Positions 53,318 through 63,645 are shown, counted from the first letter of the stretch. The stretch: 64,000 bases of DNA from the human T2T-CHM13v2.0 reference genome, Homo sapiens (GCF_009914755.1 NC_060927.1); one strand, 5' to 3'. Program-made: numbers and translations. The notes: generated from the letters alone by a model not told the origin.

Positions 53318-54267
53318 GAGTGGTTCTCAAAGTCTGCAGACCCCTGGTAGTCCATAAGATCAAAAAGATTTTCATAATACTAAGATATCTGCTTTTTCAC
53401 TGTGCTGACATGGGCACTAATGGTGCAACAGCAGAGGTAGGAAAAGCTATTTGTGCCACAGCATGAATCAAGGCTATGATACCAAGCTGTACTCAAAGTT
53501 GTTGTATTCTTCACTGTCATGTAATTCCAGGGTTTTTTTAAATGCCAGTTTGACTTAAGAATGTCTTTGCCAATTGCAGCTACCAAAGAAAAAGAAAAAT
53601 GAATGTCTTTGCTGAAGGACTATAAATGATTAGTTTTACTAAATCTTGACCCTTGAATACATATCTTCTTAACATTCTGTGTGACAATATGGGAAATACG
53701 TATAAAGTATGTATGTTGTGCAACAACATCCAATGGACGTCCCAGGGTGGGGAGCATTTGTGTGGAGGTTTGAGTTGCAAGATGAACTATGTGCTTTTCT
53801 CATGGAACAAAATAAAGTATGGTTATTTGGACTTGGGTGTTTGGCAGATATTTTGTTAAAACTTTTCTTTAAAGTGAACAAAATTAGCTCTTCAAAACAA
53901 CTGACAGTTTCTGTTGCCAGTGGTAGAATTCAAGTGTTCTAGTACTTGAATTTTTGAAAAATCATATTCACTACTGTGAGCTTAACAATTTCCAGTACTT
54001 AAAAACTCTTCTGATAAGATTGGGGTTAATGTTTATATATGTGATTTTTTTTATTATTCAATGAAATATGTCAACGTTAGGAAGACCTGCAAAAGTCAAA
54101 GATCTACGATTTCCCAAATACTCAATGCACAATGTTGCAAAATTATCTGTAAGTAAAAAAATCCATTCAAAGTGCAAGGCAGATCAATGGATTGTAATTT
54201 AACAGCATACTTAATTAATATGTTTCAGATGCCACAGTGATACAAACCCTTAAAAAACTGCCACTTG
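53318..54267. mobile_element. Charlie1-like hAT transposon, left part
   Basis: agtggttctcaaagt start; 'tttcataatactaaga', 'aaatccattcaaagtgcaag', ends aaactgccacttg. Confidence 0.8.
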
Positions 54268-56103
54268 GGGGTGGAGCCAAGATGGCCGAATAGGAACAGC
54301 TCCAGTCTACAGCTCCCAGCATGAGCAACTCAGAAGATGGGTGACTTCTGCATTTCCAACTGAGGTACCGGGTTCATCTCACTGGGGAGTGCCGGACAGT
54401 AGGTGGAGGACAGTGGGTGCAGCAAACCATGCATGAGCTGAAGCAGGGCGAGGCATCGCCTCACCCAGGAAGCCCAAGGGGTCAGGGAATTCCCTTTCCT
54501 AGTCAAAGAAAGGGGTGACAGACGGCACCTGGAAAATCGGGTCACTCCCACCCTAATACTGCATTTTTGCAACAGGCTTAACAAATGGCACACCAGGAGA
54601 TTATATCCTGTGCCTTGCTCAGAGAGTCCTACACCCACGGAGCCTCGCTCATTAATAGCACAGCAGTCTGAGATCTAACTGCAAGGTGGCAGCGAGGCTG
54701 GAGGAGGGGCGCCTGCCATAGCCGAGGCTTCAGTAGGTAAACAAAGCGGCCGGGAAGCTCAAACTTGGTGGAGCCCACCGCAGCTCAAGGAGGCCTGCCT
54801 GCCTCTGTAGTCTCCACCTCTGGGGGCAGGGCACAGACAAACAAAAGGCAGCAAAAACCTCTGCAGACTTAAATGTCCCTGTCTGACAGCTTTGAAGAGA
54901 GTAGTTGTTCTCCCAGCAGGCAGCTTGAGATCTGAGAACAGGCAGATTGCCTCCTCAAGTGGGTCCCTGACCCCTGAGTAGCCTAACTGGGAGGCACCCC
55001 CAAATAGGGGCTGACTGACACCTCACACGGCCGGGTACTCCTCTGAGACAAAACTTCCAGGGGAATGATCAGGCAGCAGCATTTGCGGTTCACCAATATC
55101 CGCTGTTCTGCAGCCACCGCTGCTGATACCCAGGCAAACAGGGTCTGGAGTGGACGTCCAGCAAACTCCAACAGACCTGCAGCTGAGGGTCCTGACTGTT
55201 AGAAGGAAAACTAACAAACAGAAAGGACACCCACACCAAAAACCCATCTGTACATCACCATCATCAAAGACCAAAGGTAGATAAAACCACAAAGATGGGG
55301 AAAAAACAGAGCAGAAAAATTGGAAACTCTAAAAATCAGAGTGCCTCTCCTCCTCCAAAGGAACGCAGCTCCTCACCAGCAACGGAACAAAGCTGAACGG
55401 AGAATGACTTTGACGAGTTGAGAGAAGAAGGCTTCAGATGATCAAACTACTCCGAGCTAAAGGAGGAAGTTTGAACCCATGGCAAAGAAGTTAAAAACCT
55501 TAAAAAAAATTAGACAAATGGCTAACTAGAATAACCAATGCAGAGAAGTCCTTAAAGGACTTGATGGAGCTGAAAACCATAGCACCAGAACTACGTGACG
55601 AATGCACAAGCCTTAGTAGCTGATGCGATCAACTGGAAGAAAGGGTATCAGCGATGGAAGACGAAATGAATGAAATGAAGTGAGAAGAGACGTTTAGAGA
55701 AAAAAGAATAAAAAGAAATGAACAAAGCCTCCAAGAAATGTGGGACTATGTGAAAAGACCAAATATACGTCTGATTGGTGTACCTGAAAGTGATGGGGAG
55801 AATGGAACCAGGTTGGAAAACACTCTGCAGGATATTATCCAGGAGAACTTCCCCAATCTAGCAAGGCAGGCCAACATTCAAATTCAGGAAATACAGAGAA
55901 CGCCACAAAGATACTCCTAGAGAAGGGCAACTCCAAAACACATAATTGTCAGATTCACCAAAGTTGAAATGAAGGAAAAAATGTTAAGGGCAGCCAGAGA
56001 GAAAGGTTGCATTACCCAAAAAGAGAAGCCCATCAGACTAACAGCTGATCTCTCGGCAGAAACTGTACAAGCCAGAAGAGAGTGGGGGCCAATATTCAAC
56101 ATT

Positions 56104-57608
56104 TTTTTTTTTAATTTTTTTAGTATTTATCGATCATTCTTGGGTGTTTCTCGGAGAGGGGGATTTGGCAGGGTCATAGGACAATAGTGGAGGGAAGGTC
56201 AGCAGATAAACATGTGAACAAAGGTCTCTGGTTTACCTAGGCAGAGGGCCCTGCCGCCTTCCGCAGTGTTTGTGTCCCTGGGTACTTGAGATTAGGGAGT
56301 GGTGATGACTCTTAAGGAGCACGCTGCCTTCAAGCATCTGTTTAACAAAGCACATCTTGCACCGCCTTTAATACATTTAACCCTTAGTGGACACAGCACA
56401 TGTTTCAGAGAGCACAGGGTTGGGGGTAAGGTTATAGATTAACAGCATCCCAAGGCAGAAGAATTTTTCTTGGTACAGAACAAAATGGAGTCTCCTACGT
56501 CTATTTCTTTCTACACAGACACAGTAACAATCTGATCTCTCTTTCTTTTCCCCACATTTCCCCCTTTTCTATTCGACAAAACCACCATCGTCATCATGGC
56601 CCGTTCTCAATGAGCTGTTGGGTACACCTCCCAGACAGGGTGGCAGCCGGGCAGAGGGGCTCCTCACTTCCCAGACGGGGCAGCCAGGCAGAGGCGCCCC
56701 CCACCACCCAGATGGGGCGGCTGGCTGGGCAGGGGCTGCCCCCCACCTCCTGCACTGGGCGGCTGCCAGGCAGAGGGGCTCCTCACTTCCCAGACGGGGC
56801 GGCTGCTGGGCGGAGGGGCTCCTCACTTCTCAGACGGGGCGGCTGGTCAGAGACGCTCCTCACCTCCCAGACGGGGTGGCGGCAGGGCAGAGACACTACT
56901 CAGTTCCCAGATGGGGTCACCGCCGGGCAGAGGCGCTCTTCACATCTCAGACAGTGCGGCGGGGCAGAGGCACTCCCCACATCCCAGACCATGGGCAGCC
57001 GGGCAGAGACGCTCCTCACTTCCTAGATGGGAGGTGAGCGCCTAGAGGCGCTCCTCATTTCCCAGACTGGGCGGCTGGGCAGAAGGGCTCCTCACATCCC
57101 AGAGGATGGGCGGCCAGGCAGAGACTCTCCTCACTTCCTAGACAGGGTGGCAGCCTGGCAGAGGCTGCAATCTCGGCACTTTGGGAGGCCAAGGCAGGCG
57201 GCTGGGAGGTGGAGGTTGTAGCGAGCCGAGATCATGCCACTGCACTTCAGCCTGGGCAACATTGAGCACTGAGTGAGCGAGATTCCATCTGCAATCCCGG
57301 CACCTCGGGAGGCCGAGGCTGGCAGATCACTTGCGGTCAGGAGCTGGAGACCAGCCCGGCCAACATGGCGAAACCCCATCTCCACCAAAAAATATGAAAA
57401 CCAGTCAGGCGTGGTGGCGCGCGCCTGCAATCCCAGGCACTCGGCAGGCTGAGGCAGGAGAATCAGGCAGGGAGGTTGCAGTGAGTCGAGATGTCGGCAG
57501 TACAGTCCAGCCTCGGCTCCGCATCAGAGGGAGACCGTGCAAAGAGGGAGGGGGAAAAGGAGGGGGAGGGGGAGGGGGAGAGCGAGAGGGAGAGGGAGAG
57601 GGAGAGGG
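56104..57608 (-). mobile_element. Full-length SVA, old subfamily (SVA_A/B-like)
   Basis: On + strand: poly-T, SINE-R (~56125-56620), GC-rich VNTR (~56625-57160), Alu-like domain (~57160-57540), (GGGAGA)n hexamer (57545-57608). Confidence 0.95.
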
Positions 57609-58263
57609 CGTCATTCTTTCATGCCTTCTCCAGAGAGTGGCCCCAGGACTTTGCAGCCAGAGGGCTCTTTCTAAAATGCAAATCTCCAGCAGTGAGCCAC
57701 TGCGCTGGAGTAATTCCAGACCTTTGTAATCCCAGCCCTTTGGGAGGCCGAGGCAAGAGGATCACTTGAGGCCAGGAGTTTCAGACCAGCCTGGCCAACA
57801 CGGTGAAACCTCGTCTCTGCTACAAATACAAAAATTAGCCGGGCGTACTGGAGCACATCCATAAGTCCAGCTACTCAGGAGGCTAGGCAGGAGAATCGCT
57901 TGAACCCAGGAGGTGGAGGTTGCAATGAGCAAGACTGCACCACCGCACTTCAGCCTGGGTGACAGAATGAGACTCCATCTCAAAAATAAAAAATAAAGTA
58001 AAAATGCAAATTTCACCAACATCCTAAAGTGGGCTTTCAGTGACTCCTTAAGGTCTCGGGTCCGAGGCCCTTCCCAAGCCTGGACCTCCCAGTCCCCCGA
58101 GCCACCCCCAGCAGCCAGTGTGCCAGATCTGGTCCTATAGAACCAGAAGTGATTTCCTAAACGCATGGTGGCAGCTGGAACCACTGTCCCCCTTCTGCCT
58201 TGACAAGACTCTACATGTCTACACCTTTGTTTCACTTCCTCCCAGAAGCCTTCCTGCAACGTA
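57609..58263 (-). other. SVA 5' transduction (~650 bp: L2-like remnant plus Alu at 57684-58000)
   Basis: Non-L1, non-SVA sequence between the hexamer and the L1 resumption point; enclosed by the aacatt(c/t)tt duplication. Confidence 0.85.
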
Positions 58264-58539
58264 AACATTCTTAAAGAAAAGAATTTTCAACCCAGAATTT
58301 CATATCCAGCCAAACTAAGCTTCATAAGTGAAGGAGAAATAAAATCCTTTACAGACAAGCAAATGCTGAGAGATTTTGTCATCACCAGGCCTGCCCTAAA
58401 AGGGCTCCTGAAGGAAGCACTAAACATGGAAAGGAGCAACCGGTACCAGCCACTGCAAAATCATGCCAAATTGCAAACACCATTGATGCTAGGAAGAAAC
58501 TGCATCAACTAACGAGCAAAATAACCAGCTAATATCATA

Positions 58540-62364
<3,825 letters not shown>

Positions 62365-62594
62365 ACAATGAGAACACATGGACACAGGAAGGGGAACATC
62401 ACACACCGGGGACTGTTGTGGGGTGGGGGGAGGGGGGAGGGATAGCATTAGGAGATATACCTAATGCTAAATGACGAGTTAATGGGTGCAGCACACCAAC
62501 ATGGCACATGTATACATATGTAACTAACCTGCACGTTGTGCACATGTACCGTAAAACTTAAAGTATAATAATAATAAAATAAAATAAAATAAAA

Positions 62595-63215
62595 GAGAAA
62601 AGCATGTTTGTTAAGATAAAACAAAAAAAAAGAAAGAAAGAAAAGAAAGAAAAGAAAAGAAAAGAAAGGAAAAGAAGAGAAAAGAACAGGGCTGGCAAGT
62701 TTTTGCTGCAAAGGGCTAGATAGTACATATTTCTGGTGTTGCAAGTCAAGAAGCAAAATTGAGGCTACTATGTAGGTATTTATAAAACTAGAGAAAAAAT
62801 AAAGATCCACAACATTTTTACTGGTAAAATTCAAAATACAGTAATAATTGGAACTCAGAGAGAGAGTAGAAGGGTGATTGCCAGGGGCTAGGAGTGGGGG
62901 AATGCTGAGATGTTGATCAAAGGGTACAAACTTTTGCTTATAAGATGAGTAATTTCTGGGATTCTAGAGTACAGGATGTACTCTAGTTAATAGTTAATAG
63001 TACTGTATTGTAAACCTGAAATTTGCTGAGAATAGATCTCTAGTGTCACCACCACACACACAAAAAAATAGTTACTATGTGAGGTGATGGACATGTTAAT
63101 TCGACTGTGGTAATCATTTCACAATGCATACCAAATCGTCATGTTGTATGTCTTCAATATATACAATTTTCATTTGTAAATTGTGCCTCAATAACGCCAG
63201 AAAAAAGTATTATTT
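62595..63215 (+). other. L1 3' transduction: ~22 bp unique, second A-rich tail, MER58C-like fragment (62687-62850), L1MA/MB 3' end (62851-63206)
   Basis: Lies between the L1 tail and the 3' TSD copy at 63216-63233. Confidence 0.85.
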
Positions 63216-63233
63216 TTAAAAAACTGCCACTTG

Positions 63234-63645
63234 TCCAGTTCTGATATAATATCAGAAAAGAATTTCCACAATTATCTGAAGAGGCCTTTATTTTCAACTA
63301 TGTATATCTGTGAGGCTAGATTTTCTTATATTTCCACAAAAACAATGTATCATAATAAATTGAATGTAGAAGCAGATAGCAGAATTCAGTTGTCTTTTAT
63401 CAAGCCTAGACATTAAAGAGATTTGCAAAAATATAAAGTAATACCACTCTTTTCATTATGTACTTGTTTTATAAAATATAATTATTTTCACAAAAGTATT
63501 ATTTATGTTAACATGCAACAGGTTTGTTGTTTTATTTTAAAATGTAATAATAAATATTTTTTACTTTTTCAATTTTACTTTTGAAATCAGCAAATACAGA
63601 TAGATATAACTCAATAAGCAAAAAATCTTTGGGGTCCTCAATTAC
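63234..63645. mobile_element. Charlie1-like hAT transposon, right part
   Basis: Continues the left part: 'ccacaattatctgaa', 'tgaatgtagaagcagata', 'cattaaagagatttgcaaaaat', 'tttggggtcctcaat'. Confidence 0.8.

What the first reader, a model, noticed from the sequence alone, without database searches (positions are those of the whole stretch)
54250..63233. L1 insertion whose TSD encloses a ~620 bp 3' transduction
ttaaaaaactgccacttg occurs at 54250-54267, just before the L1 5' end, and identically at 63216-63233, not after the L1 A-tail. Removing 54268-63233 rejoins the Charlie1 transposon. The intervening MER58C-like and L1MA/MB fragments are far older than L1PA4, yet the duplication is perfect. 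The simplest reading is that they were carried from another locus by read-through. The cargo ends ~20-25 nt after the old L1M poly(A) signal (aataac, 63190-63195), consistent with use of that signal. A repeat annotator would list these as independent old insertions.
Basis: partly seen in the sequence, partly recalled or inferred. Interest (0 to 1): 0.8.

Follow-up and report, generated by a model that had tools for sequence, protein, structure and literature searches.

The report
Old L1 carrying borrowed flanking DNA
A full-length but long-dead L1 retrotransposon landed here together with about 620 bases picked up from two places on chromosome 4, an ordinary and well-known by-product of L1 copying, and the same spot later passed a 1.7-kb piece on to a third place on chromosome 4.

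Summary
TTAAAAAACTGCCACTTG occurs exactly twice in the window (54250-54267, 63216-63233). It brackets a full-length L1PA (from 54268) plus 621 non-L1 bases (62595-63215).

- The cargo has one older copy, at chr4:25.87 Mb. It is 95% identical outside the A-rich part, and there the old DNA transposon continues beyond the cargo.
- The cargo stops about 19-23 nt after an AATAAA that is intact in that donor.
- In 9 of 19 paralogues the two flanks are contiguous with a single copy of the 18-mer.

Amendments:
- The cargo is two nested transductions. A 26-28 bp tag from chr4:41.18 Mb comes first.
- No L1 sits at either donor locus in this assembly.
- No poly(A) separates the cargo from the 3' repeat.
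- Window 61903-63575 was copied (99.82% identical) to chr4:110.66 Mb behind a 1.1-kb fragment of the youngest L1 family. This implies a young L1 nested at 61902/61903 that is absent here, or a template switch.
- The L1 is split by an antisense SVA with a 651-bp 5' transduction from chr17.

This is a known mechanism and a new instance of it, of low to moderate interest.

The parts
54250..54267 (+). 5' copy of the target-site duplication (18 bp as seen). The canonical TT|AAAA nick would make the true duplication the 16 bp AAAAAACTGCCACTTG.
54268..62569 (+). Full-length L1PA-type element. It is about 6.14 kb once the nested SVA block is subtracted. ORF1 is split by the SVA. The longest stop-free stretch in the ORF2 region is 311 aa, so the element is dead.
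   Evidence: Best paralogues are 96-97% identical over the 3' 1.08 kb.
56105..57608 (-). Nested antisense SVA: poly(T), a SINE-R-like part, a VNTR at ~56620-57165, an Alu-like part, and the hexamer repeat ending at 57608. The part names are recalled, not tested.
57610..58260 (-). 651-bp block attached to the SVA 5' end, copied from chr17:74,160,957-74,161,612 (94.8% identity). It is a probable SVA 5' transduction.
62570..62594 (+). First A-rich tail of the L1 (AATAATAAAATAAAATAAAATAAAA). It contains four overlapping AATAAA; the last ends at 62593.
62595..62622 (+). Short first transduction tag. 26 of its 28 nt are identical to chr4:41,177,717-41,177,744 (minus strand). It ends 29 nt after the last AATAAA of the tail.
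   Evidence: The reversed-pattern control gave 0 hits.
62623..62686 (+). A9 run, then a GAAA-rich stretch. From about 62640 it is homologous to the A/GAAA-rich tail of the Alu that precedes the cargo at the donor locus.
62687..63215 (+). Second transduction cargo. It holds the 5' ~165 nt of an old DNA-transposon-like repeat and a 3'-terminal fragment of an old L1M-type element with AATAAC at 63190-63195. It is 95.2% identical to chr4:25.87 Mb (494 of 519 aligned positions, 3 indels).
63216..63233 (+). 3' copy of the target-site duplication. It follows the cargo directly, with no poly(A) run in between.
61903..63575 (+). Segment later copied to chr4:110,657,826-110,659,498 (1673 bp, 3 mismatches, no gaps). 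There it follows the interrupted A-tail of a 1.1-kb fragment of the youngest L1 family and ends in a pure A16 tail.
63549..63554 (+). AATAAA in the flanking old transposon. The chr4:110.66 copy ends 21 nt downstream, at 63575.

Best explanation
A single L1-mediated (target-primed reverse transcription) insertion, roughly 15-25 million years old, placed a full-length L1PA RNA with a 621-nt non-L1 3' extension into an old DNA transposon. It duplicated 16-18 bp of the target.

The extension records two successive 3' transductions.
- First, an ancestor L1 on the minus strand at chr4:41.18 Mb was polyadenylated ~29 nt past its own AATAAA. This added a 26-28 nt tag.
- Second, a descendant sat in the A-rich tail of an Alu at chr4:25.87 Mb. 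Its transcript read through that tail, the first 165 nt of an old DNA transposon and an old L1M 3' end. It was cleaved ~19-23 nt after that L1M's still-intact AATAAA.

Both source L1s are inferred to have been unfixed alleles that were later lost.

Shown: the bracketing repeat, the contiguity of the target, the two donor loci, and the direction of transfer. Inferred: read-through from now-absent source L1s.

Later, less than about 1 million years ago judged from 0.18% divergence, window 61903-63575 was retrotransposed to chr4:110.66 Mb behind a fragment of the youngest L1 family. The most likely route is a 3' transduction from a young L1 nested at the TT|AAAAAG site at 61902/61903, an allele that this assembly lacks.
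For: - The repeat is exact, occurs only twice in the window, and 0 of 100 shuffles reached 2 matches.
- The L1 starts at 54268, within 4 nt of the start of homology in 33 of 39 hits.
- The flanks are contiguous in 9 of 19 paralogues with a single copy of the 18-mer.
- The cargo has only three full-length copies in the genome: the window, chr4:110.66 (527/528) and chr4:25.87 (494/519; K2P 0.050).
- The donor keeps the rest of the old transposon, shown by 8 of 17 paralogues. It also has an intact AATAAA 19 nt before homology ends.
- The 28-nt tag matches 26/28 at one other locus, which is unique non-L1 sequence; the reversed-pattern control gave 0 hits.
- The target reads CCCTT|AAAAAA. By recalled knowledge this fits the L1 endonuclease preference.
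- Best paralogue identity of the L1 is 96-97%, against at least 99.6% for the chr4:110.66 L1 fragment.
- The chr4:110.66 copy ends in A16, 21 nt after an AATAAA in the window's flank.
- Its internal L1 tail carries 5 interspersed T, as expected of a DNA-encoded tail.
Against: - No L1 lies at either donor locus in this assembly. At chr4:25.87 an Alu tail abuts the cargo and there were 0 L1 hits in the 10 kb upstream. chr4:41.18 is unique sequence.
- No young L1 is nested at window 61903. All three source elements are therefore missing.
- There is no poly(A) between the cargo and the 3' repeat beyond the A6 that belongs to the duplicated target. This is unusual for a polyadenylated read-through RNA.
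- The last 2-5 nt of the cargo (TTTTT) do not align cleanly with the donor (TTAATTG).
- No target-site duplication was seen around the chr4:110.66 composite.
- No outgroup orthologue could be examined.
Confidence: 0.78

Rival explanations
1. Template switching during reverse transcription produced a chimeric retrocopy. Priming began on a cellular transcript from chr4:25.87 Mb that ended at the L1M poly(A) site. On reaching that transcript's A-rich 5' part, the reverse transcriptase jumped to the poly(A) tail of an L1 RNA and copied it to full length. The same mechanism could have joined the window transcript to a young L1 RNA at chr4:110.66.
For: - No source L1 is present at any of the three donor positions.
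- Both junctions lie at A-rich stretches (GAAA-rich 62623-62686; AAAAAG at 61903), where a nascent T-rich cDNA could re-anneal to a poly(A) tail.
Against: - A switch after only 26 nt of a chr4:41.18 transcript is far-fetched. By contrast, polyadenylation 29 nt after the L1's own AATAAA explains the tag simply.
- A-rich starts are equally expected of transduced DNA, because it begins with the source element's target-site duplication.
- From recall, known chimeric retrocopies carry the L1 as the 3' partner, not as a full-length 5' partner.
- The internal tail at chr4:110.66 has 5 T among ~52 nt. That fits a genomic tail, not a fresh RNA tail in a copy only 0.18% diverged.
Confidence: 0.13
2. The L1 and the cargo were joined or captured at the DNA level rather than as one RNA. 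Examples are filler DNA captured during double-strand-break repair at the L1 3' junction, or a small duplicative transposition.
For: - A poly(A) tail is missing at the cargo end.
- The last few bases of the cargo do not match the donor cleanly.
Against: - The 3' limit of the cargo falls ~19-23 nt after an intact AATAAA in the donor. Its 5' limit falls in an A-rich tract fused to the L1 tail. These are RNA-processing landmarks.
- A clean 16-18 bp duplication at a TT|AAAAAA site brackets the whole unit.
Confidence: 0.04
3. The old repeat fragments are independent ancient insertions in place, and the 18-bp repeat is chance. This is the default reading of a repeat annotator.
For: The fragments are much more diverged from their paralogues (70-79%) than the L1 is from its own (96-97%).
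Against: - The block is 95% identical to a single other locus that holds its continuation.
- Paralogues of the host transposon are contiguous across the site.
- 0 of 100 shuffles gave two copies of the 18-mer.
Confidence: 0.01

Closest known systems
L1 3' transduction. Recalled from memory: Moran et al. 1999; Goodier et al. 2000; Pickeral et al. 2000; Szak et al. 2003. From a search listing, the abstract of PMC13009371 says about 25% of insertions carry a traceable downstream sequence.
   Same: - L1, then its own weak poly(A) region, then unique downstream DNA of a source locus, with the whole unit bracketed by one target-site duplication at a TT|AAAA-type site.
- The cargo ends a short distance after a downstream AATAAA.
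- Nested tags record successive source loci.
   Different: - No source L1 is present at either donor locus.
- No poly(A) tail follows the cargo.
- The cargo itself consists of old repeats, so annotation hides it.
Transduction-traced young L1 source elements absent from a reference, and young L1 insertions hidden inside older L1s. PMC7026601 and PMC10606232 were seen as search listings and abstracts only. 'Orphan' and non-reference source elements are recalled from memory.
   Same: A 1.1-kb fragment of the youngest L1 family at chr4:110.66 Mb carries 1673 bp of this window. That points to a source nested in the older L1 at 61902/61903, which the assembly lacks.
   Different: - The source allele itself was not observed.
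- Only one offspring exists in this assembly.
- No target-site duplication was seen around the offspring.
Chimeric retrocopies made by reverse-transcriptase template switching (recalled: Buzdin et al. 2002-2003).
   Same: Two unrelated transcripts are joined head to tail at an A-rich point inside one duplication-flanked insertion.
   Different: Here the L1 is the full-length 5' partner. The junctions also look like source-element tails plus target-site duplications.
SVA 5' transduction (recalled: Damert et al. 2009; Hancks et al. 2009).
   Same: 651 bp of chr17 sequence is attached directly to the hexamer end of the nested SVA.
   Different: - No SVA was detected beside the chr17 source within the 3.2 kb fetched.
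- Membership of a published transduction group was not checked.

Membership tests
L1 3' transduction | L1 3' end with its own A-rich tail or poly(A) signal, followed by non-L1 sequence | tested here: met
   The L1 body runs to ~62569 and the tail is 62570-62594. Non-L1 sequence occupies 62595-63215.
L1 3' transduction | One target-site duplication brackets L1 plus cargo, with none at the L1/cargo junction | tested here: met
   An exact 18-mer lies at 54250 and 63216. No other bracketing direct repeat was listed.
L1 3' transduction | The host sequence is continuous once the insertion and one repeat copy are removed | tested here: met
   9 of 19 paralogous loci show contiguous flanks with a 17-18 bp overlap. 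The true empty site in an outgroup was not available.
L1 3' transduction | The cargo derives from a unique locus elsewhere, where it continues into other sequence | tested here: met
   chr4:25.87 Mb matches at 494/519, and the remainder of the old transposon is present there, shown by 8 of 17 paralogues. The tag matches chr4:41.18 Mb at 26/28.
L1 3' transduction | A source L1 lies immediately upstream of the cargo at the donor locus | tested here: not met
   An Alu tail abuts the cargo and there were 0 L1 hits in the 10 kb upstream. The tag locus is unique sequence. This is compatible with lost, unfixed sources but leaves the step inferred.
L1 3' transduction | The cargo ends shortly after a downstream poly(A) signal | tested here: met
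   The donor has an intact AATAAA and homology ends 19-23 nt later. The window copy now reads AATAAC.
L1 3' transduction | A poly(A) tail lies between the cargo and the 3' duplication | tested here: not met
   The sequence reads ..GTATTATTT|TTAAAAAACTG. Only the A6 that is also present in the 5' copy is there.
L1 3' transduction | The target resembles the L1 endonuclease site (TT|AAAA on the L1 strand; recalled) | tested here: met
   The pre-insertion site reads CCCTT|AAAAAACTG.
   No repeat-consensus library was on hand. Only an age class could be assessed: 96-97% to the best paralogues, 93.5% to a copy of the youngest family, and cargo-donor K2P of 0.050.
Template-switch chimeric retrocopy | No source element at the donor, and a junction at a point of microhomology between two RNAs | tested here: inconclusive
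   The sources are absent and the junctions are A-rich. Both facts are also expected under transduction from lost sources.

The most novel reading that the evidence does not exclude
A retrotransposition-competent L1 of the youngest family sits, or recently sat, in some human haplotypes inside this dead L1, at T2T-CHM13 chr3:61,441,902/3. It is in the same orientation at a TT|AAAAAG site. T2T-CHM13 lacks it. Its only trace here is the 1673-bp transduction at chr4:110.66 Mb. The locus would then be a relay in a four-locus pedigree: chr4:41.18, then chr4:25.87, then chr3:61.44, then chr4:110.66.

A bolder side reading concerns the tail-less 3' junction. The old insertion may have been primed on a non-adenylated or U-ended RNA.
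Probability: 0.55. Interest if true: 0.4.

Novelty: new member of a known kind. Interest (0 to 1): 0.3.

Why it matters
- **Annotation.** When the transduced DNA is itself made of ancient repeats, a repeat annotator reports it as separate old insertions. That misdates about 600 bp and hides the true insertion boundaries.
- **Lineage tracing.** The nested tags give a rare multi-step pedigree for an extinct L1 lineage.
- **Lost sources.** The source copies of fixed insertions can themselves be lost.
- **A testable lead.** The chr4:110.66 copy gives a concrete pointer to a young source L1, absent from this assembly, between FHIT and the next gene. Existing human pangenomes can check it.

Tried and rejected
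- **Siblings.** I looked for copies carrying the 28-nt tag or the cargo. Only the window, its chr4:110.66 copy and the two donor loci were found. No further offspring of the 3' flank turned up.
- **L1 upstream of the chr4:25.87 donor.** 0 hits in 10 kb.
- **Duplication around the chr4:110.66 composite.** None was visible. Its 5' flank is essentially unique, with one weak 64-nt hit, so paralogues could not define the empty site.
- **L1 at chr4:41.244 Mb.** It is among the 40 best relatives of the window L1 and lies 66 kb from the tag locus. It lacks the tag and has a different tail, so I treated it as unrelated.
- **Print record of an L1 source at 3p14.2.** One paper held all four search terms, and it concerns gastric-cancer rearrangements (listing only).
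- **Coordinate lookup in the supplements of PMC7026601.** Those tables, and those of pangenome or population insertion catalogues, may list the inferred young L1.
Full report
**Observation**

The 18-mer TTAAAAAACTGCCACTTG lies at 54250-54267 and again at 63216-63233, without mismatch. No third copy exists in the window even with 2 mismatches allowed. Chance expectation is 0.02, and 0 of 100 shuffles reached two matches.

The first copy abuts the 5' end of an L1. When 54200-54620 was searched against the whole assembly, homology to other L1 5' ends began at window 54264-54272 in 33 of the 39 non-self hits listed.

- The L1 body ends near 62569 and is followed by an AATAAA-rich tail at 62570-62594.
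- The second copy of the 18-mer lies 621 bp beyond that tail.
- No direct repeat brackets the L1 alone or the extra 621 bp alone.

The description is correct.

**What the 621 bp are**

A whole-genome search with 62688-63215 gave only three full-length matches: the window itself, chr4:110,658,611-110,659,138 and chr4:25,869,570-25,870,088. Every other listed hit was partial, at 71-77% identity, typical of an old interspersed repeat.

I aligned the part between CAGGGCTGG and GTATTATT:
- window against chr4:25.87: 494 of 519 aligned positions identical (95.2%, K2P 0.050), plus 3 indels;
- window against chr4:110.66: 527 of 528 identical.

At chr4:25.87 the homologous block is preceded by an Alu. 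The 3' part of that Alu's A/GAAA-rich tail is also shared with window ~62640-62686. The block then runs on into different sequence.

The first ~165 nt of the cargo belong to an old DNA-transposon-like repeat, 69-79% identical to the older paralogues listed apart from two short partial hits. In 8 of 17 paralogous copies that part continues directly into sequence homologous to L003 2180-2388. That sequence is present downstream at chr4:25.87 and is missing from the window. So chr4:25.87 is the original context, and the window holds an excerpt of it.

The excerpt ends 19-23 nt after the poly(A) signal of the old L1M-type 3' end. That signal is an intact AATAAA at the donor and AATAAC in the window.

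**A second, older tag**

Between the L1 tail and the A run that precedes the chr4:25.87-derived part lie 28 nt (62595-62622). A pattern search allowing 3 mismatches found this string in three places:
- the window;
- the chr4:110.66 copy;
- chr4:41,177,717-41,177,744 on the minus strand, matching 26 of 28.

The reversed-pattern control gave 0 hits. The chr4:41.18 locus is unique, non-L1 sequence.

The tag ends 29 nt after the last AATAAA of the L1 tail. That is the expected result of polyadenylation just beyond the element. The cargo is therefore two nested transductions: chr4:41.18 first, then chr4:25.87.

**The target**

The 5' flank (53900-54267) belongs to an old repeat family, 67-75% identical to its paralogues. 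In 9 of 19 fetched paralogous loci, the 5' flank plus 18-mer and the 18-mer plus 3' flank map contiguously, overlapping by 17-18 bp. An uninterrupted element thus holds one copy of the site.

The site reads CCCTT|AAAAAACTG. From recalled knowledge of L1 endonuclease preference, this is a canonical nick site, and it would make the true duplication 16 bp.

**Age**

- The 3' 1.08 kb of the window L1 is 96-97% identical to each of the 39 non-self copies listed.
- It is 93.5% identical to the young L1 copy on chr4.
- The longest stop-free stretch in its ORF2 region is 311 aa, and ORF1 is split.

The subfamily itself could not be tested. A perfect 18-bp duplication is not surprising at about 2.5% divergence per copy.

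**Mechanism**

The anatomy is that of a serial L1 3' transduction inserted by target-primed reverse transcription.

Shown:
- one duplication around the whole unit;
- a continuous target;
- two donor loci;
- the direction of transfer;
- RNA-processing landmarks at the ends of both tags.

Inferred: the cargo was read through from L1 copies sitting at the donors. Neither donor has an L1 in this assembly. An Alu tail abuts the cargo at chr4:25.87, with 0 L1 hits in the 10 kb upstream, and chr4:41.18 is unique sequence. The simplest account is that the source copies were polymorphic and were lost, as most new insertions are.

The main rival is template switching of the reverse transcriptase from a chr4:25.87 transcript onto an L1 RNA tail. 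It needs no lost elements, but it explains the 26-nt tag poorly.

**Unexplained detail**

No poly(A) separates the cargo from the 3' duplication. The sequence reads ..GTATTATTT|TTAAAAAACTG, and the five T do not align cleanly with the donor's TTAATTG. Possible explanations are:
- priming at the very start of a short tail, so that the A6 of the target absorbs it;
- later shrinkage of the A run;
- priming on a non-adenylated or U-ended RNA.

None of these was tested.

**Later history of the locus**

chr4:110.66 Mb holds window 61903-63575 (1673 bp, 3 mismatches, no gaps). That segment comprises the last ~670 bp of the old L1, both tags, the 3' duplication copy and 342 bp of the flanking transposon.

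- The copy ends in a pure A16 exactly 21 nt after an AATAAA at window 63549-63554.
- It is preceded by a 1.1-kb 5'-truncated L1 fragment.
- That fragment scores within 18 bits of its 1963-bit self-match against all 39 other listed copies, so it belongs to the youngest L1 family.
- The fragment's A-tail of ~52 nt carries 5 T.

The copied segment begins at the A run of cATT|AAAAAGTCAGG, again an endonuclease-type site. The window is uninterrupted there.

The best reading (about 0.55-0.65) is a 3' transduction from a young L1 nested at 61902/61903 in an allele that this assembly lacks. Template switching is the alternative. The 0.18% divergence makes the event recent, probably human-specific. No duplication was found around the composite, and its flank is too unique for a paralogue test. 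It is the only offspring in this assembly.

**Also present**

The L1 is interrupted at 56105-58263 by an antisense SVA (part names recalled). Attached to the SVA's 5' hexamer end are 651 bp (57610-58260) that are 94.8% identical to chr17:74,160,957-74,161,612. This is a probable 5' transduction. Again no SVA was detected at the source within the 3.2 kb fetched.

**Literature**

Three full-text searches returned general work on L1 transduction and source elements. I saw only listings and abstracts.
- The abstract of PMC13009371 states that about 25% of insertions carry a traceable transduction.
- The search for 3p14.2 together with L1 source terms found one unrelated paper.
- Supplementary tables could not be opened. 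They may list the inferred young L1.
- The classic papers named in this report are recalled, not read here.

**Verdict**

It is a clear new instance of a well-known mechanism. It has a two-step tag, missing sources, a tail-less junction, and a recent onward transduction that points to a young L1 absent from this assembly.

Noticed in passing
window 61903-63575; L011 8703-10000 and L002 1-2403 (chr4:110,656,702-110,659,514): A 1.1-kb fragment of the youngest L1 family on chr4 is followed by 1673 bp copied from this window (99.82% identical) and a pure A16 tail. This implies a young source L1 nested at window 61902/61903 that this assembly lacks, or a template switch. No target-site duplication was seen around the composite.
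   Followed up: yes
window 56105-58263: An antisense SVA splits the L1 ORF1 region. Attached to the SVA 5' end are 651 bp (57610-58260) that are 94.8% identical to chr17:74,160,957-74,161,612, a probable SVA 5' transduction. No SVA-specific hit was found in the 3.2 kb fetched at the chr17 locus. The flanking repeat is short (AACATT).
   Followed up: partly
L058 (chr4:41,243,400-41,245,400, minus strand): One of the 40 best relatives of the window L1 lies only 66 kb from the chr4:41.18 tag locus, on the same strand. It lacks the tag and has a different tail. I treated this as coincidence, but nearness at that scale is unexpected.
   Followed up: partly
L003 2020-2190 (chr4:25.87 Mb donor locus): Just after the point where cargo homology ends, the donor carries an antisense Alu fragment flanked by AGGACAATTTT repeats. 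It may have inserted after the transduction event.
   Followed up: no
window 63190-63195 versus L003 ~1996-2001: The poly(A) signal presumed to have been used reads AATAAC in the window and in the chr4:110.66 copy, but AATAAA at the donor. The change therefore arose in the window copy after insertion and before the recent onward copy.
   Followed up: yes
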